A DNA stretch of 64,000 nucleotides, from positions 5,363 through 69,362 of the IMG/VR virus record IMGVR_UViG_3300021425_000027. One strand, written 5' to 3'. Of this stretch, positions 766-20,673 are shown piece after piece. The stretch's first letter is position 1, and every line of letters begins with the position of its first letter. A program made the translations under genes and the position numbers. The notes beneath the pieces were generated by a model. It did no database searches. It saw nothing but the letters and a program-made list of their open reading frames with translations, and was not told the DNA's origin. Origin of the DNA: a virus.

Positions 766-1260
766 ATGGCTAATATTGATAATCAATGTAAAGATCTCGA
801 AGTAAGAGATTACTTTTCAGAGAATGGTTATGATCATTCTAAAAATTCACTAGAAGATCTTTATTCACTTCAAGCAAAAACGCAATCTATGTATTTCGAA
901 AAGCAAGGCAGAAAGCCCTTTTCAGAATTTAATATAGGTGATGTTGTAGATTTTCTCATGGTAACTAATCATGCAATAATTGATGAATTACATGAGATGA
1001 TGGATGCTGTTGGTGGGATTGAAGATGGGGAAGGTAATGCTGCATGGAAACCTTGGAAATCTGCAAATTCTGAAATTAGAAAACAAAAATTATCAGATTT
1101 AACACCAGGTGATCTTAAAGAATTGAAAATGGAATGGATTGATATAATGCATTTTGTATTTAATGCAGGTTTGGCCATTGGTGTTACTCCACAAGAATTC
1201 TATAACTATTATCTTTCAAAGAATGAAGAGAATTGGAATAGACAAGAAAATAATTATTAA
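766..1260 (+). CDS. All-alpha dimeric dUTPase/dCTPase (T4 gp56-like)
   Basis: Motifs DELHEM, AAWKPWK, EWIDIMHF and YLSKNEENWNRQENNY. Confidence 0.85.
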   Translation: MANIDNQCKDLEVRDYFSENGYDHSKNSLEDLYSLQAKTQSMYFEKQGRKPFSEFNIGDVVDFLMVTNHAIIDELHEMMDAVGGIEDGEGNAAWKPWKSANSEIRKQKLSDLTPGDLKELKMEWIDIMHFVFNAGLAIGVTPQEFYNYYLSKNEENWNRQENNY

Positions 1261-7026: not shown

Positions 7027-8084
7027 ATCTAGACTACAATAAATTACTTAATCGTAATCCTATTTCTACCGATCTTAATTCGATTAAAGAATACATAAAA
7101 GGTAAAAGAATTTTAGTTACTGGTGGTGCCGGTTCAATCGGGAGTGAAATTGTACGTCAGCTTGTAAAATTTGGTGCATCTACCGTTACTGTTTATGATA
7201 ATGCAGAAGCTTCAATGTTTCACTTGGAGCAGGAAATCAGCAGATTATTTCCCAACTCTCATATTAAATATGTAATAGGAGATGTAAGAGATAAGTATAG
7301 GTTAGAAGAAGTTTTTGATTCTTTTAAACCAAATATTGTTTTTCATGCAGCTGCTTATAAACATGTTCCTATGATGGAAGCAAATCCTATTGAAGCAATT
7401 AAAACTAATGTATTAGGTACTATGAATGTTTCTAATACAGCTTATATGAATGAAGTTGAAAAGTTTGTAATGGTATCAACCGATAAAGCAGTTAATCCTA
7501 CAAATGTAATGGGTGCAACTAAAAGAATAGCAGAATTATATACTCAGTTCTTAGAAACAAAATCTGCAACTAAATTTATTGTTACAAGATTTGGAAATGT
7601 ATTAGGATCTGAAGGTTCAGTAATTCCAACATTTATAAAACAAATTGAAAGAGGAGGGCCTATAAGTGTTACCCACAAAGAGGTAATTAGATACTTTATG
7701 ACTATACCCGAAGCATGCCAATTAGTATTACAAGCAGGTGTATTAGGTAAAGGTGGAGAGGTATTTCTTTTTGATATGGGAGAACCTGTTAGTATTACTG
7801 ATTTGGCTAAAAAATTAATAAAGCATTTTAATAGTGATGCTAAAATTAAATACATAGGATTAAGACCAGGTGAAAAATTATATGAAGAGCTATTATGTAA
7901 TGGTGAAAATATGATACCTACAGAAGATCATAATATTATGAAGTTAAATCATGAAGATTATGATTTTAAAACTTTAATACCTAAAATAGAAAAATTATCT
8001 AAAATAAGGTCAAATGATTTCTATAAGATACTTTTATTAATGAAAAGTATTGTTCCGGAATTTAAAAGAGAAAGTAATGATTAA
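7023..8084 (+). CDS. UDP-GlcNAc 4,6-dehydratase (PglF/CapD catalytic domain only)
   Basis: TGGAGSIGSE, HAAAYKHVP, STDKAVNPTNVMGATKR, RFGNVLGS and GLRPGEKLYEEL. Confidence 0.9.
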   Translation: MNLDYNKLLNRNPISTDLNSIKEYIKGKRILVTGGAGSIGSEIVRQLVKFGASTVTVYDNAEASMFHLEQEISRLFPNSHIKYVIGDVRDKYRLEEVFDSFKPNIVFHAAAYKHVPMMEANPIEAIKTNVLGTMNVSNTAYMNEVEKFVMVSTDKAVNPTNVMGATKRIAELYTQFLETKSATKFIVTRFGNVLGSEGSVIPTFIKQIERGGPISVTHKEVIRYFMTIPEACQLVLQAGVLGKGGEVFLFDMGEPVSITDLAKKLIKHFNSDAKIKYIGLRPGEKLYEELLCNGENMIPTEDHNIMKLNHEDYDFKTLIPKIEKLSKIRSNDFYKILLLMKSIVPEFKRESND

Positions 8085-8625
8085 CATTTATGGTAAAGGT
8101 GGTCATGCTAAAGTAGTTGCATCAGCATTAATTAGCACTATTGATTATGGTATTAAATTTTTTAATGATGATGATTATGATCCTAATCGCTTAGGTACTT
8201 GGTTAATAGCTATTGGTAATAATTATGATAGGAAAAGAATCGCAAATAAATTAGCAGGTCATGAATTCGGAATTATAATAGCAGACAATGCAAATTGTGA
8301 TTTAAATATTAATCCAGGTGAAGGAACACAAATATTACAAAGTGCCACAGTACAAGTAGGAACTAAAATAGGTAAGCATTGTATAATTAATACAGCTGCT
8401 TCTATTGATCATGATTGTATTTTATCTGATTTTAGTTTTATAGGTCCTAATGTAACTTTATGCGGAGGTGTTGAAATTGGAGAATGTAGCTTTATTGGTG
8501 CAGGATCGGTAATTTTACCTTACATAAAAATTGGAAAAAATTGTATGATAGGCGCAGGATCAGTAGTAACAAAAGATATACCTAATAATACAACTGCATA
8601 CGGAAATCCCGCCAAAATAAAATAA
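8077..8625 (+). CDS. Sugar N-acetyltransferase, PglD/NeuD-like (hexapeptide repeats)
   Basis: YGKGGHAKVV, AIGNN..R, IINT...DHDC, left-handed beta-helix repeats and GNPAK. Confidence 0.88.
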   Translation: MINIYGKGGHAKVVASALISTIDYGIKFFNDDDYDPNRLGTWLIAIGNNYDRKRIANKLAGHEFGIIIADNANCDLNINPGEGTQILQSATVQVGTKIGKHCIINTAASIDHDCILSDFSFIGPNVTLCGGVEIGECSFIGAGSVILPYIKIGKNCMIGAGSVVTKDIPNNTTAYGNPAKIK

Positions 8626-8626
8626 C

Positions 8627-9751
8627 ATGAAAAAGATTTACTTATCACCGCCTCATATGTCAGGTAAGGAATTAGAATACATTAAAGAAGTATTTGATCA
8701 AAATTGGATAGCACCGGTAGGTCCTCATCTGAATAAATTTGAAGACATGATAAAAGAATACACTGGAGCTAAACACGCTGTGGCAGTTACTTCAGGTACT
8801 GCAGGTATTCATTTAGCTTTAAGGTCATTAGGTGTTAGCGATGGAGATTTTGTTTTATGTTCATCTCTTACGTTTATTGGAACAGTAAATCCTATTATTT
8901 ATTGTGGAGCAGAACCTATATTTATAGACTCTGAAGAAGGTACTTGGAACATGGACCCAGTATTATTAGAAACTGCAATTCTTAATTCAACTGCAATCGG
9001 TAAAAAACCTAAAGCAATTATACCTGTACATATTTTTGGCGTACCTTGTAACATGGAGGCAATTAAAAAATTATCTGATGAATATGACATACCTATTATT
9101 GAAGACGCCGCAGAGAGCCTGGGCTCTACAACAAATGATAAACATACTGGAACCTTTGGCAATATTGGGGTTTATTCTTTTAATGGAAATAAATTACTTT
9201 CTACTTCAGGTGGTGGGGTAATAGTAACCGATAATAAAGAAAAGGCTGATAAGATGAGATTTTTATCAACTCAAGCAAAAGACCCAATGCCTTTTTATCA
9301 TCATACTGAAATAGGATATAACTATAGAATGAGTAATGTTCTTGCTGCAATAGGCATAGGTCAAATGGAGGTAATTGAAGATCGTATTAATAGAACACGA
9401 GAAGTAAATGAAACCTACAGAAAGGAATTAGGAGATTACTTTTATTCCTTCCAAGAAGAAGGGTCTTCTGACAGATCAAATTGCTGGTTAACTTGTGCAC
9501 TTTTAAAACCTGAACATCGCCCAGAAGATCTTATTGAACATTTAGCAAAAGATAATATTGAAGCAAGAAGACTTTGGAAGCCTATGCATCAACAACCAGT
9601 CTTAACACAGTACAGGAAATATATAAATGGAAACAGCGCTTTATTATTCTTACAAGGTATATGTTTGCCATCGGGGTCTGATTTAACTGATGATGATCTT
9701 AAAAGAATAATTAAGTCAATAAAAACATTTTTTGATAATGATAAGCTTTGA
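8627..9751 (+). CDS. PLP-dependent sugar aminotransferase, PglE/DegT family
   Basis: IYLSPPHM, SGTAGIHLAL, EDAAESLG, SFNGNKLLSTSGGG, GYNYRMSN and CLPSG. Confidence 0.92.
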   Translation: MKKIYLSPPHMSGKELEYIKEVFDQNWIAPVGPHLNKFEDMIKEYTGAKHAVAVTSGTAGIHLALRSLGVSDGDFVLCSSLTFIGTVNPIIYCGAEPIFIDSEEGTWNMDPVLLETAILNSTAIGKKPKAIIPVHIFGVPCNMEAIKKLSDEYDIPIIEDAAESLGSTTNDKHTGTFGNIGVYSFNGNKLLSTSGGGVIVTDNKEKADKMRFLSTQAKDPMPFYHHTEIGYNYRMSNVLAAIGIGQMEVIEDRINRTREVNETYRKELGDYFYSFQEEGSSDRSNCWLTCALLKPEHRPEDLIEHLAKDNIEARRLWKPMHQQPVLTQYRKYINGNSALLFLQGICLPSGSDLTDDDLKRIIKSIKTFFDNDKL

Positions 9752-10634
9752 TGAATATAACTTATTAGAATCATATATAGACTCTCCTAACTTTGAAATC
9801 TTATTAGAGAAGAATCTTACCAATGATATTGATAAAAAGATTAAGTTTGGAATAGTAATGCCTACTCATAAAATTTCTGATGGTGGTGCGCAGACCGGTA
9901 GACAAAAGTTTATGGATACTCCATCTTTACTTAGAGACTCATTAGGATCAATTAAGAATCAGAAATATGATAACTATGTAGTTTACTTAGTAGGTGATAA
10001 GTATGATGGTGATGAAGAAATTAAGGCTGTGATGGATGAAGTAATTCCTAAAGGAAAACTTAAATATCATAACCTATCTACACCAGGAGAAAGAAACAAA
10101 GGTTTTACCAAACAGCAATTTAGATATACTGCAGGATGCGGTGCTATGAATAAAGGCCTTCAGATGGCAAAGAATGATGGATGCGATTACATTGTAAGAA
10201 TTGACCATGATGATAAATGGAGCCCAGATCACTTGGAGCTTTTGGCAAAGGCATACACACAATATCCTGAATTGGCTTATGTATTTACAAGAAGCCGTAA
10301 AAAGGTAGATGCAACAAATAGTTCAAAAAAGTTTATGTATCAACCGAGAGAAGAAAGACATACTACAACAATAGAGCCTAACAATTTAGGTTATACTCAT
10401 GGTGATGTTAGTCATTCTGCGGTTTCATGGAGGCCAAGTATGTGCGGTGATTTAAGATATAGAGATGCTTCACAACAAGCAAACACTGCACCTAAAATAC
10501 CTTTATCAAAAACAAATGCAGCTGATGTTGATATGTTTAATAGAATGATGAAAGCAATTAAAGATAAAGGTCATAAGTATATGTACATACCTAGATTAAC
10601 TAGTTTCTATAGAAACAGAAAAGGTAAATTCTAA
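9738..10634 (+). CDS. GT-A (GT2-like) glycosyltransferase with an N-terminal extension
   Basis: IVMPT, AMNKGL and RIDHDDKW..DHL (DxD motif). The N-terminus reads MISFDEYNLLE. Confidence 0.8.
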   Translation: MISFDEYNLLESYIDSPNFEILLEKNLTNDIDKKIKFGIVMPTHKISDGGAQTGRQKFMDTPSLLRDSLGSIKNQKYDNYVVYLVGDKYDGDEEIKAVMDEVIPKGKLKYHNLSTPGERNKGFTKQQFRYTAGCGAMNKGLQMAKNDGCDYIVRIDHDDKWSPDHLELLAKAYTQYPELAYVFTRSRKKVDATNSSKKFMYQPREERHTTTIEPNNLGYTHGDVSHSAVSWRPSMCGDLRYRDASQQANTAPKIPLSKTNAADVDMFNRMMKAIKDKGHKYMYIPRLTSFYRNRKGKF

Positions 10635-10636
10635 TG

Positions 10637-10646
10637 AATATATAAA
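10637..10646 (+). promoter_or_regulatory. Late-type promoter AATATATAAA
   Basis: Same motif as upstream of the portal, protease, sheath and tube genes. Confidence 0.55.
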
Positions 10647-10668
10647 AAAACAATAAAAATTAACTATT

Positions 10669-10845
10669 ATGGAAAAATTCGAAGAAATCAAAGCTCTCAT
10701 GGAAGCAGTAGGAGAAGACGTTGAAAAATTCTACGTCAAAGGAAATAAAGCAGCTGCTGTTAGAATTCGTAAGTCTATGCAAGAAGTAAAAAATCTTGCA
10801 CAAGAACTAAGATTACATGTTCAAGAGACTAAGAATAATATGTAA
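10669..10845 (+). CDS. Small basic Hc1 / histone H1-like protein (58 aa), absent from the ORF track
   Basis: Translated by hand: MEKFEEIKALMEAVGEDVEKFYVKGNKAAAVRIRKSMQEVKNLAQELRLHVQETKNNM. The KFY.KGNKAA..R.RK pattern is typical of Bacteroidetes Hc1-family proteins. Confidence 0.8.
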   Translation: MEKFEEIKALMEAVGEDVEKFYVKGNKAAAVRIRKSMQEVKNLAQELRLHVQETKNNM

Positions 10846-10870
10846 AAATACCACACGTCCCAGACACCTT

Positions 10871-10910
10871 AAAAGGGCTACTATTTTAAATAGTGGTCCT
10901 TTTTTGTTTT
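10871..10910 (+). terminator. Rho-independent terminator
   Basis: aaaagggctactattt / aaatagtggtcctttt stem followed by a T tract. Confidence 0.7.
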
Positions 10911-10929
10911 TAAAAGTCCTATTTACTTG

Positions 10930-10955
10930 AAACCTTTTTAAAAACTTCTATATAA
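10930..10955 (+). promoter_or_regulatory. Class B phage promoter AAAC-N16-ATATAA
   Basis: Exact 16-nt spacer; it heads the HAD-to-epimerase operon. Confidence 0.6.
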
Positions 10956-10976
10956 TAATAAATCAGTTTGGTTTAT

Positions 10977-11528
10977 ATGGAAAGGTGCTTAATATTAGAT
11001 TTTGATGATACATTAGTTTCTACTATAGATACTCATGCAGATTCTTGGAGGCGAGCATTGGAAAGAGTCTTAAATAGAGAAATTCCAATAGAAACTATTA
11101 TGTCCGATATTAACTATGGAATGGATGTTCTATTGCAAAAATATCAATTATCCGAAAGGGAATCTCAATTGGCTCAGAAATATAAAAGACAAATTTTTTC
11201 CAAGAACCTTCATAAAACAAATGTTAATCAATTACTCCTATGGATAATTGAAAACTCAAAATTTGAAAAGGTTATAATTGCATCTAATTCATCTAGAGAA
11301 AATGTGGATAGAATTATGACTTATCATAACATTAGCCCAAATCTATTTGATCTTATTGTAACCAGAGATGATGTTAAAAATAAGAAGCCTCATTCTGATA
11401 TGGCAGATCTTATCTATAAAACATTTCCTGAATATACCTCTACTGATTTTCTTATGGTTGGTGATTCTGAAGTAGATTCAACATTCGCACTTAAAAATAA
11501 TATGAAATGCATTCTGGTAAAGTTTTAA
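10977..11528 (+). CDS. HAD-superfamily phosphatase
   Basis: DFDDTLV, ASNS, KKPHSD and VGDSEVD. Confidence 0.88.
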   Translation: MERCLILDFDDTLVSTIDTHADSWRRALERVLNREIPIETIMSDINYGMDVLLQKYQLSERESQLAQKYKRQIFSKNLHKTNVNQLLLWIIENSKFEKVIIASNSSRENVDRIMTYHNISPNLFDLIVTRDDVKNKKPHSDMADLIYKTFPEYTSTDFLMVGDSEVDSTFALKNNMKCILVKF

Positions 11529-12253
11529 TAGGAAATAGTGGAGATCGTGTTTACCTTCATGATGATAAAGTAGTTAAGGAGGCTGGTGTTTATCCTATTA
11601 AATTTAAACAGCAAATGGATTGGTTAACAAATTGTACTCATCCGAACTTTATTAAGATAAGACCTTTATCTGATACTTCATTTGAAATGGACAAGTACCC
11701 AACATGGTATGATAAAATTTGCAGTCAGCCTTTAATTAAGTCAATTGATCAATTAGATAAACTGATTCATATTGTAAATGACTTTGATGGTTATGGTGCT
11801 GATGTTGATACGAGATCCTATTTAGATAAATTGGAAGGAAGAACAGGCTATAAGTATGATGGTAAATTTGATGCAGTTTCAAAGTGGGGATTTGTTCACG
11901 GTGATCTTACTGTAAGTAACATCTTATATGATAAAGATTTCGTATTTATTGATCCTAGAGGAACAGAGGAACAGAATTACTATGATCATGGTAAACTGAT
12001 GCAATCATTTACTATGAAATATGAGTCCCATATATACAATGAGAGGAATCGTAAATACATTAAGTTTTGTAGAGAAGCCGAAAAGATTATGTATGAATGG
12101 TATGATGAATATCAACTTAAGTTCTTTTTGGCTGTTCACTTACTAGGAGCGGTTCCATTTTTTGAACTAAATGAAAGATATGAATTGGCAGGTATGTTCC
12201 TTAAGAAAGGCCACGAGCTATTTGATGAATTAGAAATTAAGTATACGAAATGA
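11507..12253 (+). CDS. APH/choline-kinase-like small-molecule (sugar?) kinase
   Basis: GNSG loop, VVK, HGDLTVSNIL, FIDPRG and YDHGKLMQS. Confidence 0.8.
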   Translation: MHSGKVLIGNSGDRVYLHDDKVVKEAGVYPIKFKQQMDWLTNCTHPNFIKIRPLSDTSFEMDKYPTWYDKICSQPLIKSIDQLDKLIHIVNDFDGYGADVDTRSYLDKLEGRTGYKYDGKFDAVSKWGFVHGDLTVSNILYDKDFVFIDPRGTEEQNYYDHGKLMQSFTMKYESHIYNERNRKYIKFCREAEKIMYEWYDEYQLKFFLAVHLLGAVPFFELNERYELAGMFLKKGHELFDELEIKYTK

Positions 12254-12897
12254 AAAAAATAGAAAACTTTAGGTATCATTACTCAAACTGCGAGTCACAA
12301 GTTAAAGAAATTAGTTCTTTATTAGAAGGTAGTGATATTTTAGATATAGGATCAAATGTAGGATTCTTTTCCGAGGCTGTTGTAAAAAATGTTAGGTATA
12401 AATCTATTCATTTATTTGAACCTAGTAAAGAGTATTATAATTATAGTAAATCTAACGTTTCATTACAAAATTCTAAAAATATATTTTTTAATAATTACGG
12501 TTTAAGTAATACCAGTTCACAAAGTATATTGTATAAATCCCCTACTGATAATATAGGCTGGAACACTTTCTATAAAAAAGATCCAAACCAAAAAGAAGAG
12601 TTTTTTAGCAAAATGATTAAAGAAACTTGTACACTTAAAAAATTAGATGATTATAAAATCAAAAATATTGACTTTATAAAAATTGATGTTGAGGGTTTAG
12701 AGCACAAGGTATTAGAAGGCGGATTAAAAATAATAAAGAAATTTAAACCTTATATTTTGGTTGAGGTAGGTTGGGGAACCTCTCACCCTGATTGGGAAGA
12801 CTGTCTTAAAGTATACAATCAATTATTTGATATGGGATATGAGAGAGTAGATTTTAAATCATATACACAAGATATTTTATTTAAACCAAAAAGATAA
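12250..12897 (+). CDS. FkbM-family methyltransferase
   Basis: LDIGSNVG, FEP, IDFIKIDVEGLE and ILVE. Confidence 0.88.
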   Translation: MKKIENFRYHYSNCESQVKEISSLLEGSDILDIGSNVGFFSEAVVKNVRYKSIHLFEPSKEYYNYSKSNVSLQNSKNIFFNNYGLSNTSSQSILYKSPTDNIGWNTFYKKDPNQKEEFFSKMIKETCTLKKLDDYKIKNIDFIKIDVEGLEHKVLEGGLKIIKKFKPYILVEVGWGTSHPDWEDCLKVYNQLFDMGYERVDFKSYTQDILFKPKR

Positions 12898-12899
12898 AA

Positions 12900-13607
12900 A
12901 TGAGTAGAGTAAGAAAGGCAATTATTTTGGCGGCTGGTAAGTCAACAAGATATGGATCAAATAAACTTATAGATCCAATTTTAGGAAAATCAACAATTCA
13001 GTACTGCATTGAATTTTGTATTGAGAATGGAATAGAAGATGCATATGTTACTATAAGCAAATCTGACTTCTTCTTTAAAAACAGAAATACAAAACTGTCT
13101 CATCCTATTATTGAAAGTTTATCTAAGTATAAGGAAAAGATAAACATTTATTATGAATTCCAAAAGGATGATGAGTATGGTCCCGGTGCTGCTATTAAAG
13201 CATGGGAAGGTAAATTCTATGAACCTTTCTTATGTCTCTTTGGTGATAATTACTACCAAGGTAATATTGGTTTAGAATACCATGATCCGAATAATACTGT
13301 TGTTACTTATAAAGATTATGAAACCAGAGCAAGAAATTTACAACTTGCTACTATCCTAGAAGATGTGGTTATTGAAAAACCTCATGGTGTAGTAAACGGA
13401 AGATACTTCTGTGGATATATGATATTTGCAAAAGAAGCATTTGATAACTTAAGCAGTATTAAATTATCAAATAGAAATGAATACGAAATTACTCATCTTA
13501 TAAACTCGATGGATAATTTAAAATTTGAAGAATTAGATATATGTTGGTACGATCTAACATATGAACAAGATAAACAGGTAATAGAAGACATTATTCAAAA
13601 TTGTTAA
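12900..13607 (+). CDS. Sugar-phosphate nucleotidyltransferase (RmlA-like)
   Basis: AIILAAGKSTRY...K, LFGDN, IEKP and SNRNEYEITH. Confidence 0.88.
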   Translation: MSRVRKAIILAAGKSTRYGSNKLIDPILGKSTIQYCIEFCIENGIEDAYVTISKSDFFFKNRNTKLSHPIIESLSKYKEKINIYYEFQKDDEYGPGAAIKAWEGKFYEPFLCLFGDNYYQGNIGLEYHDPNNTVVTYKDYETRARNLQLATILEDVVIEKPHGVVNGRYFCGYMIFAKEAFDNLSSIKLSNRNEYEITHLINSMDNLKFEELDICWYDLTYEQDKQVIEDIIQNC

Positions 13608-13608
13608 T

Positions 13609-14874
13609 ATGAAAGAGAATGTAAAAAAGATTGGCTTTTTTAAATTAGGTAAAGCCATTAAGTTTAATGAAAACAGTTGGAGCGCAATTGGTGGAGATTG
13701 TGAACCTAAGCAATTAATTTGTTCAATTGCAAATAGAAATCCTAATATTGAATATTGGTTATTAAGCCCTAATGATTTAGGAAAGTTTAGAGCAAAACAA
13801 AAACCAAAAGTAAATTCTTTATTTGGTCCTCCGCAAACGGATGAACCTACTGTGCCTAATAATATTAAGGAATTTCACTCTACTATGAAGGAGAGAAAAT
13901 CAACCGAGGAGAGCGTTGAAATAATTAAAGGTTTAGATTTAGATTACATTTTCTTTTACACTGGCCCTACTAGCACTGTAAACATCCCAGAGTATATTAA
14001 TAAGAAAGATGGTACAGGGCAAGTTAAATCGTTAGACTTCTTTAAGTATTATGCAGCTCCAATTATCAAAGCAATGAATGAATTGGAAAAGAAAGTTCCT
14101 ATTGTTGGATTACTTGTAGATAACCGATACATTCTTGCTTGTAAGGATTGGGGAATTAATAATAGACCTACATATTACTTAGCACAGAATACTTTTACTA
14201 AAGAAGAAGAATATTTTTGCAATCCTCCATTAAGGGATACTGCAAAGATAACTTCAACATATGAATATTCTGGCATTGAAACAGTATTCCTTTTGGATAA
14301 GAAAAGATATAACACCGATGAGTTGTTTGAAATGAAAAAAACAAATTCATTTATGATGTTACAGAACCAAGGAAAGGGATCAGGTGGTATGGATCGCTGG
14401 GATCCAGTAAAAGAATATATTGTTGATCAAAATATTGAAACTGATATCTATGGTAAATGGGATGATGAGATTAAAGAAAAATATCCTGATTGGTTTAAAG
14501 GTGAAACTAGAATTGAAACAATGACCGATGAACTTTTAAGTACTAAATATACCTTTTGCGTTCCTATTAAAGAAGGTATGGTCACTTCTAAATATGCAGA
14601 AATGCTACACTATGGTATAATACCTTTCTTACACCCGTCATACGATACTGACTTTAATGTGTTCCCTGAAGGTCACTTTATCAGATGTAAATCACCAGAA
14701 GATCTTAAAAATAAAATTGAATTCTTAAATGCAAACCCGGAGCATTATAAGAAATTATTTTACAACCTCCAAGAAAAGTATCTTAAAGATTCTTATTACA
14801 CCGGAGAGCATGTAGATAACAAAATCTGGGAAGCCTATGAACGTGTAACAAAAACTGAAACTATAAATGTATAA
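13609..14874 (+). CDS. GT-B glycosyltransferase resembling T4 DNA beta-glucosyltransferase
   Basis: Colinear matches to T4 BGT recalled from memory: KIGFFKLG/KIAIINMG, LLVDNR/LFTDIR, NNRP/KNRP, YEYSGIE/FEYFPIE, DIYGK/EFFGN, VTSKYAEM/ITLRVWET and YDT/FDT. Confidence 0.65.
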   Translation: MKENVKKIGFFKLGKAIKFNENSWSAIGGDCEPKQLICSIANRNPNIEYWLLSPNDLGKFRAKQKPKVNSLFGPPQTDEPTVPNNIKEFHSTMKERKSTEESVEIIKGLDLDYIFFYTGPTSTVNIPEYINKKDGTGQVKSLDFFKYYAAPIIKAMNELEKKVPIVGLLVDNRYILACKDWGINNRPTYYLAQNTFTKEEEYFCNPPLRDTAKITSTYEYSGIETVFLLDKKRYNTDELFEMKKTNSFMMLQNQGKGSGGMDRWDPVKEYIVDQNIETDIYGKWDDEIKEKYPDWFKGETRIETMTDELLSTKYTFCVPIKEGMVTSKYAEMLHYGIIPFLHPSYDTDFNVFPEGHFIRCKSPEDLKNKIEFLNANPEHYKKLFYNLQEKYLKDSYYTGEHVDNKIWEAYERVTKTETINV

Positions 14875-15889
14875 TTCTGAAACTAAAATCCTAGTCACTG
14901 GTGGAGCTGGGTTCGTTGGTACAAATTTTATCAATGATTTATTAAATAGAGGTCATAATCCTAAATGTATTGCTGTTATTGACAATATGGAACACGGTAC
15001 TTACATACCTAAGGTACATGATCAAATAGAAAATTTTCATAAAGTAGATATTAGAAACCAATATGTAGAAAATATCATAGAAGAATTTAAACCTGATTAT
15101 GTATATCATTTTGCAGGTTTAGTTTCAATTTATGACTGTAATGAAGATCCATATGAAGCAGTTGATAATAATATCTTAGGTAGCATTAATGTAATGAACG
15201 GTTGTGTAAAGGCTGAGGTAAAGAGAATCATCTTCAGTGAAACTTCTGCCGTTTATGAAAATGAAATTATGCCTGATGACGGATTTAATGAAACACAGTC
15301 GGATCCTACTACTGTATATTCTACGACTAAGGCATGTCTTGCATTATTAGCAGAATCTTACCAGAGGACTAAAGGATTAAATTATACTGCTTTAAGATAT
15401 TTTAATGTAGCTGGTCCTTTACAAGACTATAATAGAACTATCCCTCCAGTGTTCGCAGGATTTATTTTAAGAATTAAAGGTGGTCATAATCCTATTGTAT
15501 TCGGTGACTATATGAAAGCCAGAGATTACATTGATGTATCAGATGTTAATGCTTTCCATATTCTTTGTATGGAAAATGAAAATACTGCAAACCAAACATT
15601 TAACTTAGGTACAGGTAAGATGACCAACTTAATGGAACTCAAAAATATGATAGGTGATATTATGGGTGTTGGTGAAGTACCATTTGATCACTATGATCCA
15701 ATTGCAGGTGAAGCTTTAAATATCAGAGGAGATATCTCTAAAGCAAAATCTATGGGATGGGAGCCTAAGAAAGATATAAGAGATACCATCAAGGAAACTA
15801 TTGTTTATCTTGAAAATGAAATAGCTGAAGGTACAATTGATCCTTTAACATTCATGGAAGATTTAGAAATTGAAAAAGTAAAAATCTAA
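14867..15889 (+). CDS. NAD-dependent nucleotide-sugar epimerase/dehydratase
   Basis: TGGAGFVG, HFAG, YSTTK (YxxxK), LRYFNVAGP, ARDYIDVSD and FNLGTG. Confidence 0.9.
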   Translation: MYNSETKILVTGGAGFVGTNFINDLLNRGHNPKCIAVIDNMEHGTYIPKVHDQIENFHKVDIRNQYVENIIEEFKPDYVYHFAGLVSIYDCNEDPYEAVDNNILGSINVMNGCVKAEVKRIIFSETSAVYENEIMPDDGFNETQSDPTTVYSTTKACLALLAESYQRTKGLNYTALRYFNVAGPLQDYNRTIPPVFAGFILRIKGGHNPIVFGDYMKARDYIDVSDVNAFHILCMENENTANQTFNLGTGKMTNLMELKNMIGDIMGVGEVPFDHYDPIAGEALNIRGDISKAKSMGWEPKKDIRDTIKETIVYLENEIAEGTIDPLTFMEDLEIEKVKI

Positions 15890-15962
15890 TTAAATAACAG
15901 AATTTACAACAGGAGGTTATTCTGAGTTTAAAGAATCTTATTATAATAAAAAAACATAAATT

Positions 15963-17225
15963 ATGAGTAAAGAATTAAAATGGGGTACTATAATTCCACT
16001 GATTGGTGGTAGTGCTATAGGATGTAAAAAATCTGCAGGTAACGAGCCTGCATTTCATTTAAGTTATGATGCATTTGCTGCTAATGAAAGTCATATTGAA
16101 AAATATTGGCCAGATGTACCAATGTATCGCCTAGATCATGAAGAGGTTGAAATACCTCAACAAACTTTTGATGGGGTTGATTATGTAAATTCAGTATGTC
16201 CCTGTGCTGGTCTTTCACAATTAAATTCTGCAAAAGGAACTGCTGCATCAAGAGGTTCAGGTGCTACTCAAAATAAATGGATGTATGATTCGTCAGAATA
16301 TATTTTGGAACATGTAAAACCTAAAGTTCTTTGGGGTGAAAATGCGCCAGGCCTTTTTACTAAAATGGGTGAAGGCGTAGTTAATAGACTAAGGGAAATT
16401 GGTGAAAAACATGGGTATAGTTTTTCTCTCATTAAAACAAATACTGAATTACATGGAATACCTCAGCGGAGAATGAGAACGTTTTATTTCTTTTGGAATA
16501 CTCCTACTGTACCAATGTTAAGTTGGAAATTTAGAGAGAAGAAAAAGCTTATTGATTACTTAAATGAAATTCCTGAAGATGCTACCCAACAGGATATGTT
16601 TATGGTTGAAGGAAAGGTCAGTGATCACTTTAAGCCTTATGAATATGTTTTAGAAAAAGAAGGTATGACGCATGCTGAATTTGCAGCTGAATTTAAAAAA
16701 GGTACTATTGCACAATATTTGGAAAGTAATGATTTAATTGATGATTGCATTAAATGGCTAGAAAAGAATTATCCTAAAACAGGATTTTCAAATAAAAAAT
16801 CTACAAAGACTTTTATTGATATGTTAGAACACCAGAAATATAAAACAAGCCAAGGTTTAGGTTATTGGGATGCTTCTCCACATTTCTTTCATGATTCTTT
16901 TTCTGCTCTTATAGGTAGAAATATGTTTAATGGTGTTCACCCCGTTGAAAACAGATATCTAAATGTAAGAGAAATGTTACACTTAATGGGATTACCTTTA
17001 GATTTTGAAATTGAATCTTCTCGCCAAGTTAATCACATTGCGCAAAATGTACCTGTTACAACTGCTATGGATATGGCAGACGAAGTAAAGAAATTTTGTA
17101 ATGGTGAAGCTAAGATGACAAATTACACATTCTTAAAGCAAGATAATACTAATCATAAAGTAATTCAAGCCGAGGAGATTGGAGCAGAACCTAAGAAAAA
17201 ATACAAAGTAAAAAGTATAATTTAA
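15963..17225 (+). CDS. DNA cytosine-C5 methyltransferase-like protein with an atypical SAM-binding motif I
   Basis: Motif IV CPCAGLS, VI GENAP, VIII GIPQRRMR, IX RYLNVREMLHLMGLP and X IAQNVP. Motif I reads IIPLIGG instead of FxGxGG. Confidence 0.82.
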   Translation: MSKELKWGTIIPLIGGSAIGCKKSAGNEPAFHLSYDAFAANESHIEKYWPDVPMYRLDHEEVEIPQQTFDGVDYVNSVCPCAGLSQLNSAKGTAASRGSGATQNKWMYDSSEYILEHVKPKVLWGENAPGLFTKMGEGVVNRLREIGEKHGYSFSLIKTNTELHGIPQRRMRTFYFFWNTPTVPMLSWKFREKKKLIDYLNEIPEDATQQDMFMVEGKVSDHFKPYEYVLEKEGMTHAEFAAEFKKGTIAQYLESNDLIDDCIKWLEKNYPKTGFSNKKSTKTFIDMLEHQKYKTSQGLGYWDASPHFFHDSFSALIGRNMFNGVHPVENRYLNVREMLHLMGLPLDFEIESSRQVNHIAQNVPVTTAMDMADEVKKFCNGEAKMTNYTFLKQDNTNHKVIQAEEIGAEPKKKYKVKSII

Positions 17226-17227
17226 TT

Positions 17228-18232
17228 ATGAAAGATAATGCAGTTGCAATAGGAATATCAAGCCTAGAGTTTACTAATATCTTATGTAGTTATTATCCTA
17301 AAGGGATTAAAGAAAAATTTGACATTTATCTGTTTGTGGATGATACTAAAATAGACTTAGATAAACTTAAAAATATTTTTAATGAACATAATTTACAGAT
17401 TTTTAAAGATGCTAAAATAATTATCTTAAATGATCTTTATCAATATTACATAAAGAAACATGGTTATGAAGGGCTTTCTAAAGAGTTTTTATTAAAGCAT
17501 GGTTGTTTGTTTAAGATCTTAATGCCAATTTATCTTAAAGAAAAATTTGGAGTTAAAAGAACATATGTTTCAGATGACGACGTGTTTATTCTAAATGACT
17601 TAAGTTATATGTGGGATGAGTATAAAGAATTTGGAATAAAGAAGGAAAATTTATTTTACATTAGAAATAAAAATAAGTATGATGTAATGAATGCCTTTAA
17701 TGAAATTTTTGAATCTGATTTTACTTTAGATCAAATGAATAGTCTTTCTATAAATGCAGGTAATATTATTTATGCAGAAGATCCTAAACTAGAGTATTAT
17801 TTTGAAAGGTTTGTAAAACACCCGTTTATACATCATATGTTTTTTGATTTTAGCGGGTACACAAGCTGGACAGTAGAACAGAGATTCCACCATTTTAATA
17901 TGCATAGGTATTTATCAGAGGGTAGGGAAGTTAAATTTTTACAGAGTAAAGATTTAAGATTAATGCAAAATCTTGATAAAGATATGAAAGCAGGCACCCC
18001 ACCTGAAAAATATCTTAAGGTAGTTATGCCTTCTATAATTCATTATGCAATAGGTACAAAAAAGCCTTTATGGCTTAGAGATTTTTTGCCTGGTTTAAAA
18101 TGGAGGTTTGGGTTTACATACAAACCTAAATATGAATTAAAAGATATCTTATATAATAAATCATGGTTTCCTCCATCATTTAAGAGCGTACAGAAAAAAG
18201 GAAAAGAATATTCAATAAAATCAGTATTTTAA
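17228..18232 (+). CDS. Putative GT-A (GT8-like) glycosyltransferase
   Basis: YVSDDDVFIL (DxD), INAGNII, EQ and IIHYA...KP. Confidence 0.6.
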   Translation: MKDNAVAIGISSLEFTNILCSYYPKGIKEKFDIYLFVDDTKIDLDKLKNIFNEHNLQIFKDAKIIILNDLYQYYIKKHGYEGLSKEFLLKHGCLFKILMPIYLKEKFGVKRTYVSDDDVFILNDLSYMWDEYKEFGIKKENLFYIRNKNKYDVMNAFNEIFESDFTLDQMNSLSINAGNIIYAEDPKLEYYFERFVKHPFIHHMFFDFSGYTSWTVEQRFHHFNMHRYLSEGREVKFLQSKDLRLMQNLDKDMKAGTPPEKYLKVVMPSIIHYAIGTKKPLWLRDFLPGLKWRFGFTYKPKYELKDILYNKSWFPPSFKSVQKKGKEYSIKSVF

Positions 18233-18233
18233 A

Positions 18234-18704
18234 ATGAAGACATTAAAAACAATTACAACAGCAACATTTAAGATGGATGTCGGTGACATCACATTCAGAC
18301 TGTTTGACGAAACGCCAATACAAACCACAACCTTTATTATGCATGCAAAATCCGGTAACTTTAAAGGGATGGACTTTTTTAGAGTAGAGCCTGGTTTTAT
18401 TATACAATCTGGTCCTAAGGAAGGTACAGCAGGTGGCTCTATGTGGGATGAAATTGAGCCCCCTAGGAGAATTAAAGATAACAACACACATTTCTTTGGT
18501 ATATTAAGTGCGGCTAATGCAGGTAGTCCAAATTCTTCTATAGGTGGATATTTTATATGCGTAGGTGGGAGACACAATGTTAGCTTTTTGGATAAAAAAT
18601 ATACATCGTTTGGTCACATTATGAGTGGGTGGGAGTATATAGAAAAAATAGAAAAGGGTGATATTGTTAATGATGTCATTATTAATACATATACATTAAA
18701 CTAA
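18234..18704 (+). CDS. Cyclophilin-type peptidyl-prolyl isomerase
   Basis: FFRVEPGFIIQSGP, GILSAANAG.PNS, LDKKYTSFGH and IEKGD. Confidence 0.88.
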   Translation: MKTLKTITTATFKMDVGDITFRLFDETPIQTTTFIMHAKSGNFKGMDFFRVEPGFIIQSGPKEGTAGGSMWDEIEPPRRIKDNNTHFFGILSAANAGSPNSSIGGYFICVGGRHNVSFLDKKYTSFGHIMSGWEYIEKIEKGDIVNDVIINTYTLN

Positions 18705-18745: not shown

Positions 18746-19495
18746 ATGGAAACAACTATTAACAAAATTGACGGTTATGAATTAAGTTCATTCGTTCGCA
18801 AGCTATTACCAATTGACAAATTTATTTTTATGAAAATTTCAAAGGAAGGTACGGTATCTTCTGTTTATTTTCCTGAAAGAGATGCTGTTAAATTAGTCAA
18901 CACACCAACGACTGATATGTTTGATGCTGATATTGAAAACCCAGTTAAAGTAAGCTTTTATAACGGTACTAAAGTTATCGATGCATTAAGCCATTTTAAT
19001 GGAGATGTAAAGGGTCGCATTAAATATACAGAATATGAAGGTGAATACATGGCAAGTGATTTTATTTTAGAAAACGATGATCTTCAAATTAACCTTGCTT
19101 GTACTGATCCATCTCTTTCGTTCATGGAGATGAGCAAGGAAGAAACTGATAGAGCCTTTAATACAAATGAAAAAATGTTTGAATTTGATCTATTAACAAC
19201 GCATGTAGATAAAATGAAATCATTATTTAATTTGGATAAAGATGAGGATATCTTTACTTTGTACATTGGAGAAAAGGGCATTAATATTAAAGGTACATCA
19301 TATGATGCTACACTGTGCCACAGTTATGATTCTAATGTTGATGCTGGAGAAAAGGTTATAATTTACAAAAAATACATTAATCTTTTAGATAAAGAAAATT
19401 ACAAAGTAAGTGTATGTGGAAACAAGGTTGTATTCAAATCATTGGATACTAACACCCATCTTACCGTAGCAGTTGCAATTACTGATGAAGACTAA
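18746..19495 (+). CDS. Putative DNA sliding clamp (gp45/PCNA-like)
   Basis: Acidic 249-aa protein with a two-domain beta/alpha pattern, directly upstream of the polymerase C-terminal gene. Clamp-loader genes are present elsewhere in the window. Confidence 0.55.
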   Translation: METTINKIDGYELSSFVRKLLPIDKFIFMKISKEGTVSSVYFPERDAVKLVNTPTTDMFDADIENPVKVSFYNGTKVIDALSHFNGDVKGRIKYTEYEGEYMASDFILENDDLQINLACTDPSLSFMEMSKEETDRAFNTNEKMFEFDLLTTHVDKMKSLFNLDKDEDIFTLYIGEKGINIKGTSYDATLCHSYDSNVDAGEKVIIYKKYINLLDKENYKVSVCGNKVVFKSLDTNTHLTVAVAITDED

Positions 19496-19554: not shown

Positions 19555-20673
19555 ATGACAGAAGAATTACAAAACGTAAAAGAAGAGGCTTCAAAATATT
19601 ACAATTATGAGCAAGCCGTTAAGTTAATGCTTAACTCTATTTACGGTGCATTTGGTAATCCTTACTTTTATTTCTTTAATGTTGATATAGCAGAAACTAT
19701 TACTCTTCAAGGTAAAGATGCAATCTTATACACTGAGCAATTAATTAATAAGTACTTTAAGGAATTTTGGCATAAGGATTTGCCTGCTCATGCTGCTATG
19801 GGCATTACTGTAACTGGTAAAATTGAAAAACCTGTAGGTATTTACATTGATACAGATTCTGTTTATGTTAAATTTGATGAGGTAATTCAAAAGGCCGAAG
19901 GCTGGGATGGTGATGAAAAGGAATTTATACTTAAGCTCTACAAGGTTAGGCTAAATGATTACATTGAAAAGATTTTACAAAAATATGCTGATGATAATAA
20001 TGCAGAAAACTTCTTATCATTTGAGTTAGAAAGTATTGCTAAAAATGCAATATGGTTAGCCAAGAAAAAGTATATGCAAAATATTGTTTGGAAAGATCCA
20101 GATATTCATTATGACGACCTTTCTAAAATTAGTTCAAAAGGCTTTGAAATTATTCAATCATCAACTCCTATTTTTGCTAGAGAAAAACTCAAAGAATTGC
20201 TAACTTACATTTTTTCTGTTAAAGAATTAGATATGGGCGCCTTTGCATCTTTACTTAAAGATGTTAAAAGACAATTTAGATTAGCAAACGTTGACCAGAT
20301 AAGCTTTTCACGAAAGGTAAATAATTATCAAAAATATATTGTTAATGATTATGATGCATTTGAAATTGCATCAAAATGCCCAATTGGAGTAAGATCTGCA
20401 GGTTATCATAATTATCTTTTAAATAATTCAGGTCTTAAAGGAAAGTACCAACCATTAGGAAATGGTGAAAAATGTAAAATGTATTTTTCTGAAGACAAAT
20501 CATGTGATGTATTTGCATATGCACCTGGAGATTATCCGTATGAGTTTGCACCGAAAATAGATTATGATAGACAATTTGAAAAAACTATATTGGATCCAAT
20601 AAACCGGGTCGTGACAGCAATGGGATTTAAATCATTTAATAGAAATTTGATTTACACCACAAGCTTATTTTAA
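19555..20673 (+). CDS. Family B DNA polymerase, C-terminal subunit (motifs B and C, thumb); gp43B-like
   Basis: KLMLNSIYGAFGN, AETITLQG, YIDTDS, AKKKY, KGFE...SSTP and IDYDRQFEK. Ends in a clamp-binding-like TTSLF. Confidence 0.92.
   Translation: MTEELQNVKEEASKYYNYEQAVKLMLNSIYGAFGNPYFYFFNVDIAETITLQGKDAILYTEQLINKYFKEFWHKDLPAHAAMGITVTGKIEKPVGIYIDTDSVYVKFDEVIQKAEGWDGDEKEFILKLYKVRLNDYIEKILQKYADDNNAENFLSFELESIAKNAIWLAKKKYMQNIVWKDPDIHYDDLSKISSKGFEIIQSSTPIFAREKLKELLTYIFSVKELDMGAFASLLKDVKRQFRLANVDQISFSRKVNNYQKYIVNDYDAFEIASKCPIGVRSAGYHNYLLNNSGLKGKYQPLGNGEKCKMYFSEDKSCDVFAYAPGDYPYEFAPKIDYDRQFEKTILDPINRVVTAMGFKSFNRNLIYTTSLF

What the first reader, a model, noticed from the sequence alone, without database searches (positions are those of the whole stretch)
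10930..17225. Candidate new DNA hypermodification pathway: atypical C5-MTase, BGT-like transferase and a dedicated NDP-sugar route, with no hydroxylating enzyme visible
Seen: one promoter heads coupled genes for a HAD phosphatase, an APH-like kinase, an FkbM methyltransferase, a nucleotidyltransferase, a GT-B enzyme and an epimerase, followed after a 73-nt gap by a C5-MTase-like gene. The GT-B aligns by eye with T4 beta-glucosyltransferase, including the catalytic D-x-R (LVDNR vs FTDIR). Known: BGT glycosylates 5-hydroxymethylcytosine, which phages make with dCMP hydroxymethylase or with C5-MTase plus TET/JBP; neither hydroxylating enzyme is in these 64 kb. Inference: the phage makes its own non-glucose, possibly O-methylated, NDP-sugar and attaches it to a cytosine derivative, giving an undescribed base for restriction or CRISPR evasion.
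Basis: partly seen in the sequence, partly recalled or inferred. Interest (0 to 1): 0.85.

Follow-up and report, generated by a model that had tools for sequence, protein, structure and literature searches.

The report
Phage DNA sugar-tagging gene cluster
A large marine phage carries genes that most likely make an unusual activated sugar and attach it to modified cytosines in its own DNA, a known kind of anti-restriction trick in a new combination that includes an unexplained DNA methylase.

Summary
The genes are real and as described. The operon runs HAD phosphatase, APH-like kinase, FkbM methyltransferase, nucleotidyltransferase, GT-B, SDR epimerase, a 73-nt gap, then a C5-MTase.

The GT-B's closest solved structure is T4 beta-glucosyltransferase (Z 22.7; hhalign 94%).

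The 'missing hydroxylase' is an artefact of a truncated record, which CheckV puts at 25% complete:
- 8 of 9 related records carry a thymidylate-synthase homolog with the T4 gp42 (dCMP hydroxymethylase) signature.
- In a close relative it lies about 4.5-5 kb past this contig's end.

So the best reading is a T4-style pre-replicative 5hmC pathway plus a phage-made non-glucose NDP-sugar.

This kind is already in print: T4; RB69/DLP3 arabinosyl-5hoC; and a metavirome HAD-APH + cytidylyltransferase + BGT-like GT that gives heptosyl-5hmC.

Two things remain open. The sugar is unknown, and this lineage's activation enzymes are not orthologs of the RB69 type. The C5-MTase is also unexplained: a homolog lies beside the GT-B in 78 of 80 diverse viral loci, with no TET found.

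Verdict: new variant of a known kind; moderate interest.

The parts
766..1260 (+).
   Evidence: blastp to T4 gp56: 34.9% over 109 aa, E 8e-25; phrog_173 NTP pyrophosphohydrolase 3e-18; weak dUTPase_2
10871..10903 (+). terminator-like hairpin closing the Hc1-like gene
   Evidence: 15-pair stem followed by a T run
10927..10956 (+). sigma-70-like promoter heading the operon
   Evidence: TTGAAA-18-TATAAT, 11 of 12, best site in 10600-17400; consensus match only
10968..11528 (+). HAD-IA type phosphatase (likely start ATG 10977): sugar-phosphate phosphatase
   Evidence: HAD_2 3.7e-23; beta-PGM/HAD-IA subfamily hits below cut-offs; not a homolog of RB69 gp51
11507..12253 (+). APH/ELK-fold kinase, probable sugar (anomeric) kinase
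   Evidence: AF2 pLDDT 93.1; Foldseek: maltokinase 7e-6, choline kinase, APH(3'), MTR kinase, glucosamine kinase; invariant H131-G-D133...N138, D149 in 31 sequences; weak hits to the kinase halves of the XG4 and Planchet NT-kinase fusions
12250..12897 (+). FkbM-family methyltransferase, accessory
   Evidence: Methyltransf_21 4.5e-19; TIGR01444 above cut-off; in this position in only 2 of 40 relatives
12900..13607 (+). sugar-1-phosphate nucleotidyltransferase
   Evidence: NTP_transf_3, NTP_transferase; Arch_glmU/RmlA-type hits; PDB 2ggo 6e-7
13609..14874 (+). GT-B glycosyltransferase, T4 BGT-like; proposed DNA 5hmC glycosyltransferase
   Evidence: AF2 pLDDT 93.8; Foldseek ranks 1-5 and 7 are T4 BGT, E 1e-10; VIA Z 22.7; hhalign 94.4%; synteny
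14867..15889 (+). SDR NDP-sugar 4-epimerase-like enzyme
   Evidence: Epimerase 1.6e-46; best PDB UDP-glucose 4-epimerase 4zrm 1e-41; GTB-Epi-C5MT is present in 40 of 40 close relatives
15963..17225 (+). C5-cytosine DNA methyltransferase-like enzyme, role in the pathway unexplained
   Evidence: DNA_methylase 3e-20; motifs IV, VI, VIII, IX, X align to M.HaeIII; invariant C81, E126, N127, Q168, R170, R172, Q361, N362; a homolog lies beside GT-B homologs in 78 of 80 loci
17228..18232 (+). probable GT-A (GT8-like) glycosyltransferase, possibly a second sugar; a lead only
   Evidence: no Pfam or PHROG hit; Atlas feature hits to Glyco_transf_8 clusters, 0.96; DxD-like SDDD and HYAIGTKKPLW seen by eye (motif names recalled); present in 26 of 40 relatives

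Best explanation
This is the DNA-glycosylation part of a T4-style cytosine hypermodification system in a large uncultured marine myovirus.

Proposed steps, all inferred:
1. A gp56-like dCTPase (766-1260) turns dCTP into dCMP.
2. A thymidylate-synthase homolog of the dCMP-hydroxymethylase type makes 5hm-dCMP. It is not on this truncated contig. In close relatives it lies a few kb past the contig end, next to two kinase-like genes.
3. 5hm-dCMP is phosphorylated and built into phage DNA in place of C.
4. The operon at 10930-15889 supplies the sugar. The APH-like kinase, the HAD phosphatase and the nucleotidyltransferase convert a sugar phosphate to sugar-1-phosphate and then to an NDP-sugar.
5. 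The SDR enzyme epimerises the NDP-sugar. In this strain the FkbM enzyme may methylate it.
6. The BGT-like GT-B flips out 5hmC in duplex DNA and transfers the sugar to its hydroxymethyl group. The GT8-like enzyme downstream may add a second sugar.
7. The C5-MTase is a conserved partner of this GT-B family. The most conservative guess is that it methylates cytosines that escape replacement, giving DNA with both glycosyl-5hmC and 5mC.

What is shown here is the folds, the homologies and the synteny. The acceptor, the sugar and the MTase's substrate are not shown.
For: GT-B:
- Closest solved structures are T4 BGT by two aligners: Foldseek E 1e-10 and VIA Z 22.7 against 20.1 for the next family.
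- Profile match to the BGT C-domain at 94.4%, E 9e-8.
- phmmer with T4 BGT directly hits 3 of 80 family loci, best E 1.6e-9.

Synteny of distant homologs:
- Planchet: nucleotide kinase, TS/pyrimidine hydroxymethylase, dUTPase, NT-kinase fusion, GT homolog.
- XG4: TS-like, NT-APH fusion, GT homolog, second GT, C5-MTase.
- In 80 diverse IMG/VR loci: TS-like in 53, C5-MTase in 78, RB69 gp51-like HAD in 64, NT-kinase fusion in 33. The order is TS-(HAD)-(NTkin)-GTB-C5MT on one strand.
- 50 of 52 TS-like ORFs in those loci carry the T4 gp42 D169/D177 signature. The other 2 are canonical ThyA, and none has the N169 5hoC signature.

This lineage:
- 8 of 9 related records have the TS-like gene.
- Its best PDB relatives are CMP and dCMP hydroxymethylases at 3e-25 and 1e-23, against 4e-11 for ThyA.
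- The window is collinear with relative G005 up to window 62931. The gene lies about 5.7 kb further on in G005.
- gp56 homolog in the window.
- Kinase fold, NT, epimerase.
- The core HAD-Kin-NT-GTB-Epi-C5MT is complete in 34 of 40 close relatives. The other 6 loci are cut at their start.

Precedent:
- RB69/DLP3 route (PMC13326640, sections 25, 27, 28 read).
- Contig 53 heptosyl-5hmC (bioRxiv 10.1101/2023.12.21.572611, passages and sections 8, 9 read).
- In T4 and RB69 the corresponding genes also lie between gp43 and uvsX.
Against: - No TS-like gene is on this record itself. Its presence is inferred from relatives.
- The GT-B fold is generic, and BshA-type GT4 enzymes score only about 2-3 Z units lower.
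- D171 = D100 is unverified.
- The operon is flanked by genes typical of surface or protein glycans: KdsA, a PglF/LegC/NeuD-like set and a GT2.
- The GT4 at 20689-21852 has 64%-identical homologs that sit among tail genes in cyanophages.
- A sialyltransferase-like gene lies by the capsid genes.
- This lineage's HAD and kinase have no homolog in the other 80 cassette loci, so the match to the published sugar routes is by fold and logic, not orthology.
- A dCTPase plus a C5-MTase in one phage is awkward for full replacement of C.
- No gp56-like gene was found in 5 large cassette-bearing records. That search had no positive control.
Confidence: 0.7

Rival explanations
1. The operon makes a sugar for a non-DNA acceptor: virion proteins, or a host surface glycan such as LPS or capsule. 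The GT-B only shares a fold with BGT, and the C5-MTase is an unrelated orphan methylase that happens to be a neighbour.
For: - Adjacent kdsA (equivalog above cut-off), a PglF/PseB-like dehydratase, a LegC-like aminotransferase, a NeuD/PglD-like acetyltransferase and a GT2.
- GT4 homologs lie among tail genes in S-CAM7.
- A sialyltransferase-like gene lies next to the capsid genes.
- GT4-type cell-envelope enzymes score Z 18-20.
- Pyle et al. state that about 65% of GT contigs have no nearby base-modification gene (section 9).
Against: - The GT-B family is tied to TS-like dCMP-hydroxymethylase-type genes (53 of 80) and to C5-MTase (78 of 80) across diverse viruses, often with overlapping reading frames.
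- BGT is the top hit by two structure methods and by profile.
- The PglF/AcT/AT set is missing in 5 close relatives that keep the core, so it is separable from the core.
Confidence: 0.12
2. A post-replicative route, as in the metavirome C5-MT/TET/GT clusters. The C5-MTase makes 5mC at its sites, an oxygenase not recognised here makes 5hmC, and the GT-B glycosylates it. The TS-like gene of relatives would serve another purpose.
For: - C5-MT next to a GT is the hallmark of those clusters (PMC8256090, passages read).
- Contig 53 of Pyle et al. couples HAD-APH, a cytidylyltransferase and a BGT-like GT with C5-MT/5mYOX.
- The C5-MTase keeps all catalytic motifs.
Against: - No Tet_JBP match in the record or in 5 large cassette-bearing records, two rated 100% complete.
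- The same search does ring in Mycobacterium phage Cooper: E 4e-8, 28.2 bits, below the curated cut-off.
- TS-like genes of the gp42 type sit in the same operon in most loci.
- A gp56-like dCTPase is in the window.
Confidence: 0.08
3. An RB69/DLP3-type system: arabinose, or another sugar, attached by an ether bond to 5-hydroxycytosine.
For: - The same enzyme logic: kinase, HAD, NT, GT-B (PMC13326640, section 27).
- In the wider family, the HAD and NT-kinase genes are RB69 gp51/52-53 homologs.
Against: - The diagnostic Asn at ThyA position 169 is absent. All 4 aligned relatives' TS-like proteins have Asp, as do 50 of 52 ORFs in the wider set, while RB69 gp48 shows Asn in the same alignment.
- No arabinose-5-phosphate isomerase homolog in the record or in the 80 loci.
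Confidence: 0.04

Closest known systems
T4 5hmC glucosylation system (gp56 dCTPase, gp42 dCMP hydroxymethylase, gp1 kinase, beta- and alpha-glucosyltransferases)
   Same: - A gp56 homolog is in the window.
- Relatives carry a gp42-type TS homolog with the D169/D177 signature.
- The GT-B's closest solved structure is T4 BGT.
- The location is next to gp43, uvsX and gp41, as in T4.
   Different: - T4 uses host UDP-glucose and encodes no sugar-activation genes, epimerase, FkbM or C5-MTase.
- The GT-B is 421 aa against 351 aa and only about 12-13% identical.
- The TS-like gene lies about 50 kb from the GT in this lineage.
RB69/DLP3/HY126 arabinosyl-5-hydroxycytosine system (Lee et al. NAR 2026, PMC13326640; AfhE/AfhF as cited there)
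   Same: A phage-made NDP-sugar via an APH-like kinase, a HAD phosphatase and a nucleotidyltransferase, then GT-B transferases acting on DNA. The cluster lies between gp43 and uvsX. The kinase fold hits overlap: 3ham and 6hwl appear both and in the paper's Table 1.
   Different: - The TS signature is D169, not N169, so 5hmC is predicted rather than 5hoC.
- The kinase and NT are separate genes, not a fusion.
- The HAD is of another subfamily, with no detectable homology.
- No A5P isomerase.
- Extra epimerase, FkbM and C5-MTase.
- The RB69 GTs are not detectable homologs by blastp.
Metavirome C5-MT/5mYOX/GT gene clusters, especially 'contig 53' (Burke et al. PNAS 2021, PMC8256090; Pyle et al. 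bioRxiv 10.1101/2023.12.21.572611)
   Same: A C5-MT beside a BGT-like GT-B with HAD, APH-like and nucleotidyltransferase enzymes. That trio plus the GT was reported necessary for mono- and di-heptosyl-5hmC. GT8-like second GTs and epimerase partners are described. ThyS-associated GT-B contigs with methyltransferase, epimerase and APH neighbours were counted by mining (section 9).
   Different: - No TET/5mYOX.
- 5hmC is predicted to come from a ThyS-type enzyme before replication, which leaves the C5-MT without an obvious substrate.
- HAD and kinase are separate genes.
- I could not see the supplements, so I cannot say whether this very cassette is among their contigs.

Membership tests
T4 beta-glucosyltransferase-like DNA glycosyltransferases (CAZy GT63; family number recalled) | GT-B fold with BGT as nearest structural and sequence relative | tested here: met
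   AF2 pLDDT 93.8; Foldseek ranks 1-5 and 7 are BGT; VIA Z 22.7, rmsd 3.6, 317 aligned; hhalign 94.4%, E 9e-8 over the C-domain
T4 beta-glucosyltransferase-like DNA glycosyltransferases (CAZy GT63; family number recalled) | catalytic Asp equivalent to BGT D100 | tested here: inconclusive
   D171 is invariant and R173 near-invariant in 106 sequences, and both follow a beta-strand, as FTDIR does in BGT. No residue-level superposition was available, and the relaxed hhalign does not pair them.
T4 beta-glucosyltransferase-like DNA glycosyltransferases (CAZy GT63; family number recalled) | acceptor is 5hmC in duplex DNA | not testable with these tools
   Only context: TS-like and C5-MT synteny.
T4-type pre-replicative 5hmC pathway | TS homolog with Asp at ThyA N177 (dCMP specificity) and Asp at 169 | tested here: inconclusive
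   Absent from this 69-kb record, which is 25% complete. Present in 8 of 9 related records; the signature is shown. Expected about 4.5-5 kb past the contig end.
T4-type pre-replicative 5hmC pathway | gp56-type dCTPase | tested here: met
   Window 766-1260 against T4 gp56: 34.9% over 109 aa, E 8e-25. Substrate specificity not testable.
T4-type pre-replicative 5hmC pathway | kinase for 5hm-dCMP | tested here: inconclusive
   Two ORFs with P-loop-like N-termini (seen by eye) precede the TS-like gene in relative G002. No family scan was run on them, and no homolog is in this record.
RB69/DLP3 Afh-type arabinosyl-5hoC system | 5ho-dCMP synthase signature, Asn at ThyA position 169 | tested here: not met
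   Relatives' TS-like proteins have Asp; RB69 gp48 has Asn in the same alignment. 0 of 52 ORFs in the wider family have Asn.
RB69/DLP3 Afh-type arabinosyl-5hoC system | bifunctional NT-kinase (AfhE-like) plus small HAD (AfhF-like) plus A5P isomerase | tested here: not met
   Kinase and NT are separate genes. The HAD is not homologous to RB69 gp51. No A5P isomerase homolog. Folds are analogous.
C5-MT/5mYOX(TET)/GT hypermodification clusters | C5-MT with catalytic motifs | tested here: met
   DNA_methylase 3e-20; motifs IV, VI, VIII, IX, X
C5-MT/5mYOX(TET)/GT hypermodification clusters | TET/JBP-type 5-methylpyrimidine dioxygenase in the cluster | tested here: not met
   No PF12851 match in the record or in 5 large cassette records. 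The positive control rings in phage Cooper. The record is a fragment, so absence from the genome is not proven.

The most novel reading that the evidence does not exclude
The C5-MTase-like enzyme is an obligatory part of a widespread cassette, ThyS-type hydroxymethylase + BGT-like GT-B + C5-MTase, in phages that already replace C by 5hmC before replication. If so, it does not simply methylate cytosine.

It would use its Cys-C6 covalent chemistry on 5hmC or on the glycosylated base, for example substitution at the 5-methylene, or site-specific removal or rewriting of the mark. Alternatively it writes a second, sequence-specific cytosine mark. Together with a phage-made, epimerised and in this strain O-methylated sugar, this would give an undescribed DNA base.

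The in-vitro precedent for such chemistry by C5-MTases is recalled, not read here.
Probability: 0.15. Interest if true: 0.85.

Novelty: new variant of a known kind. Interest (0 to 1): 0.55.

Why it matters
Glycosylated cytosines let phages escape restriction enzymes and CRISPR nucleases, and they are a source of DNA-modifying tools.

This locus belongs to a very abundant marine phage family:
- 196 proteins matched the GT-B at E <= 1e-3; the 120 listed are at least 78% identical.
- 384 cluster representatives matched in the deeper search.
- 282 viral stretches encode a relative.

Its sugar-activation genes differ from the characterised arabinose and heptose routes, so the sugar may be new.

The near-universal pairing of a C5-MTase with a BGT-like transferase, with a gp42-type hydroxymethylase in two thirds of the loci and no TET found, is a concrete and testable puzzle. 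Either these phages carry two cytosine marks at once, or the 'methylase' does something else.

For annotation, the case shows that a 'missing' enzyme in a viral contig should first be sought in longer relatives.

Tried and rejected
- blastn of the region against isolated phages found nothing.
- PDB sequence search found nothing for the GT-B at E <= 10. For the kinase it gave only E 0.13 to a Bud32-type kinase.
- blastp of our proteins against the T4 and RB69 GTs, RB69 gp51/52/53/55 and T4 gp42 gave nothing better than E 0.03. tblastn of the same set on the whole record gave no hit at E <= 0.01.
- A positional argument that the GT4 at 20689-21852 is 'the beta-gt' was dropped. Its 64% homologs sit among tail genes in S-CAM7.
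- u249 (18746-19495) was considered as a pathway member. It looks like a gp45 clamp instead; this is an Atlas lead only.
- The relaxed hhalign meant to pair D171 with BGT D100 was unreliable.
- hhalign of the C5-MT family against E. coli Dcm gave only 27% probability. It did suggest that motif I reads PLIGG and that the motif II Glu is not aligned. I draw no conclusion about the cofactor from this.
- Complex prediction of GT-B with C5-MTase (A1 + A3) gave no verdict: score 0.00 against a mark of 0.32. This is evidence neither way.
- The search for gp56-like genes in 5 large cassette records was empty but had no positive control.
- I did not use the look-up of sequencing runs or read laying.
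Their contig tables may already list this cassette or its C5-MT association.
- Literature searches for the TS + GT-B + C5-MT cassette found no paper that explains the C5-MT in ThyS-type clusters. This covers only the held library.

Full report
WHAT THE RECORD IS.
The window is bases 5363-69362 of a 69,362-bp IMG/VR virus record that CheckV rates 25% complete. GC is about 31% and almost all genes lie on the + strand.

It is a T4-like myovirus by its core genes:
- portal 33422-35071
- prohead protease 35118-36926
- major capsid protein 37006-38760
- clamp loader 41302-42264
- large terminase 49373-51190
- sheath 51245-54451
- tube 54491-55054

Other replication genes are a UvsX/RecA, a DnaB-type helicase and a Rad50-like gene, and an SbcD-like gene. 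The capsid protein is closest to an uncultured 462-kb phage (55%) and to Lak megaphages (35%). No isolate shares the DNA.

ORF positions, overlaps and the 73-nt gap are as stated. Family scans confirm HAD, FkbM, nucleotidyltransferase, SDR epimerase and C5-MTase.

The 'APH-like kinase' has no Pfam hit. Its AlphaFold2 model (pLDDT 93.1) matches maltokinase, choline/ethanolamine kinase, APH(3')/APH(2''), methylthioribose kinase and glucosamine kinase. It keeps an invariant HGD...N...D catalytic set in 31 relatives.

A strong promoter-like site (11 of 12) follows a terminator-like hairpin just upstream. The number of promoter-like sites in this AT-rich region is not above chance.

THE GT-B IS BGT-LIKE.
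With a 106-sequence alignment the model has pLDDT 93.8 and pTM 0.91.
- Foldseek against the PDB puts T4 beta-glucosyltransferase at ranks 1-5 and 7 (E 1e-10 to 5e-8). Other GT-B enzymes start at 4e-8.
- VIA-align gives BGT Z 22.7 (rmsd 3.6, 317 residues). The next are a GT4 at 20.1, BshA at 19.9, T4 alpha-GT at 18.2 and the phage HY126 GT at 16.6.
- The family profile aligns to the BGT C-domain with 94.4% probability.
- In BFVD the second hit is annotated as a DNA beta-glucosyltransferase.

Its equivalence to BGT D100 is unproven.

THE 'MISSING HYDROXYLASE'.
Neither Tet_JBP nor Thymidylat_synt matches the record. The record is a fragment.

I searched nine longer records of the same lineage, with GT-B 81-95% identical. 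Eight carry a divergent TS homolog of about 80-88 bits. The ninth ends too early.

- This protein's best solved relatives are CMP hydroxymethylase MilA (3e-25) and T4 dCMP hydroxymethylase (1e-23), far ahead of thymidylate synthases at 4e-11.
- In a MAFFT alignment it has Asp at ThyA positions 169 and 177, like T4 gp42. RB69 gp48 has Asn at 169, the signature that Lee et al. use for 5-hydroxy-dCMP synthases (PMC13326640, section 28).
- Two ORFs with P-loop-like N-termini (seen by eye, no family scan) precede it.
- The window is collinear with relative G005 up to window 62931 = G005 64403. The G005 TS-like ORF starts near 70,100. The gene is therefore expected about 4.5-5 kb beyond the end of this contig.
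- The window itself encodes a homolog of T4 gp56 dCTPase at 766-1260 (35% identity, E 8e-25).

So the puzzle that drove the finding dissolves.

SYNTENY ACROSS VIRUSES.
Distant GT-B homologs in isolates sit in base-modification clusters.
- Enterococcus phage Planchet: nucleotide kinase, TS/pyrimidine hydroxymethylase, dUTPase, an NT-kinase fusion annotated as a GT, then the GT homolog.
- Pseudoalteromonas phage XG4: TS-like, NT-APH fusion, GT homolog, a second GT, C5-MTase. Its MTase is 34% identical to ours (E 4e-71).

A profile search of IMG/VR gave 282 stretches. I scanned the ORFs of the 80 loci kept with phmmer.
- C5-MTase homolog in 78 of 80.
- RB69 gp51-like HAD in 64.
- TS-like in 53.
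- NT-kinase fusion in 33.
- Epimerase in 11.
- The usual order is TS-(HAD)-(NT-kinase)-GT-B-C5-MTase on one strand, with the MTase start often inside the GT-B stop.
- Many loci are short, so these counts are lower bounds.
- Of 52 TS-like ORFs of at least 150 aa, 50 have the gp42 signature, 2 are canonical ThyA and none has Asn-169.

In 40 close relatives, GTB-Epi-C5MT is always present. The full HAD-Kin-NT-GTB-Epi-C5MT core is present in 34; the other 6 are cut at the locus start. Variable parts:
- FkbM lies between kinase and NT in 2 of 40 and elsewhere in 9.
- The GT8-like gene is in 26 of 40.
- The PglF/AcT/AT set is missing in 5 loci that reach kdsA.

WHAT IS KNOWN.
- T4 uses gp56, gp42 and BGT/AGT with host UDP-glucose.
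- RB69 and DLP3 make UDP-arabinofuranose with an A5P isomerase, a bifunctional NT-kinase and a HAD phosphatase, and attach it to 5-hydroxycytosine with GT-B enzymes. The cluster lies between gp43 and uvsX (PMC13326640, sections 25, 27, 28).
- Burke et al. (PMC8256090, passages) and Pyle et al. (bioRxiv 10.1101/2023.12.21.572611; abstract, sections 8 and 9, passages) describe C5-MT/TET/GT clusters.
- In the Pyle preprint, a HAD-APH enzyme, a cytidylyltransferase and a BGT-like GT-B were all needed to make heptosyl-5hmC.
- The same preprint reports a BGT-like GT that adds a Kdo-like sugar, and GT8-like second transferases.
- It also counts ThyS-associated GT-B contigs with methyltransferase, epimerase and APH neighbours.

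The present locus is therefore a member of a described kind.

WHAT IS DIFFERENT.
(i) Sugar activation. This lineage's HAD and kinase have no homolog in the other 80 cassette loci, and its NT has one in a single locus. They are separate genes rather than a fusion, and there is no A5P isomerase. The sugar route was replaced non-orthologously and probably gives another sugar. The epimerase is closest to UDP-hexose 4-epimerases. An FkbM enzyme is present in this strain. I cannot name the sugar.

(ii) The C5-MTase.
- It keeps motifs IV (PCA), VI (ENA), VIII (QRRxR), IX and X.
- It belongs to a family that also occurs alone in S-TIM5-type cyanophages.
- It is nevertheless tied to this GT-B family almost without exception.
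- No TET was found in the record or in five large cassette records, two rated complete. The same search detects the TET/JBP domain of phage Cooper.
- With a dCTPase and a gp42-type enzyme, its substrate is unclear. I favour methylation of unreplaced cytosines, and hold open a non-canonical role.

WHAT WEAKENS THE READING.
- The TS-like gene is inferred from relatives.
- The GT-B fold is common, and the margin of BGT over cell-envelope GT4s is modest.
- The neighbourhood is full of surface-glycan-type genes: kdsA, a PglF/LegC/NeuD-like set, a GT2, a GT4 whose homologs sit among cyanophage tail genes, and a sialyltransferase-like gene. Some of these sugars may go to proteins. Equally, given Kdo on DNA in the Pyle preprint, some may go to DNA.

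VERDICT.
Observation confirmed. Interpretation partly supported. The best explanation is a T4-style 5hmC pathway with a phage-made non-glucose NDP-sugar and a BGT-like DNA glycosyltransferase (confidence 0.7). It is a new variant of a known kind. The conserved C5-MTase partner and the unknown sugar are the points worth an experiment.

Noticed in passing
window 1284-2693 and 19555-20673: The family B DNA polymerase is split into two genes about 16.9 kb apart: exonuclease plus the start of the polymerase domain, then the rest. RNR genes, the sugar clusters, the C5-MTase, a PPIase and a clamp-like gene lie between them. An earlier scan note (e1-6174929) says the same.
   Followed up: partly
window 6280-10634: A second sugar cluster with its own upstream region: kdsA (equivalog above cut-off), a PglF/PseB-like 4,6-dehydratase, a NeuD/PglD-like acetyltransferase, a LegC-like aminotransferase and a GT2. 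The dehydratase, acetyltransferase and aminotransferase trio is missing in 5 close relatives. The acceptor is unknown: DNA, virion or host glycan.
   Followed up: partly
window 10669-10845: A 58-aa protein matching the whole Hc1 histone H1-like family known from Chlamydia (2.8e-22). It sits between the two sugar clusters and is conserved in most close relatives.
   Followed up: no
window 54-725: An Fpg/Nei-type DNA glycosylase with a Neil1-type DNA-binding domain, next to the gp56-like dCTPase.
   Followed up: no
window 18234-18704: A cyclophilin-type peptidyl-prolyl isomerase in a phage (8.3e-25). It is present in only some relatives.
   Followed up: no
window 40440-41228 (- strand): One of the few minus-strand genes. 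It matches phrog_4603, alpha-2,3-sialyltransferase (4.5e-39), and lies just after the capsid genes. With kdsA nearby it hints at transfer of an ulosonic acid.
   Followed up: no
window 20689-21852: A GT4 glycosyltransferase (phrog_3408, 1e-168) that is 64% identical to a GT of Synechococcus phages ACG-2014f and S-CAM7. There it lies among baseplate and tail-fibre genes beside a 2OG-Fe(II) oxygenase.
   Followed up: partly
L047 2313-3314 (relative G002): A 333-aa ORF that overlaps the end of the TS-like gene and looks ATP-grasp-like by eye. It was not scanned against families. Relatives G001 and G002 also carry a canonical ThyA besides the TS-like gene.
   Followed up: no
L041 7359-8990 (Enterococcus phage Planchet, PLANC_62): The gene annotated 'glycosyltransferase' matches our nucleotidyltransferase at its N-terminus and our kinase at residues 402-459. 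It looks like an AfhE-like NT-kinase fusion rather than a GT.
   Followed up: partly
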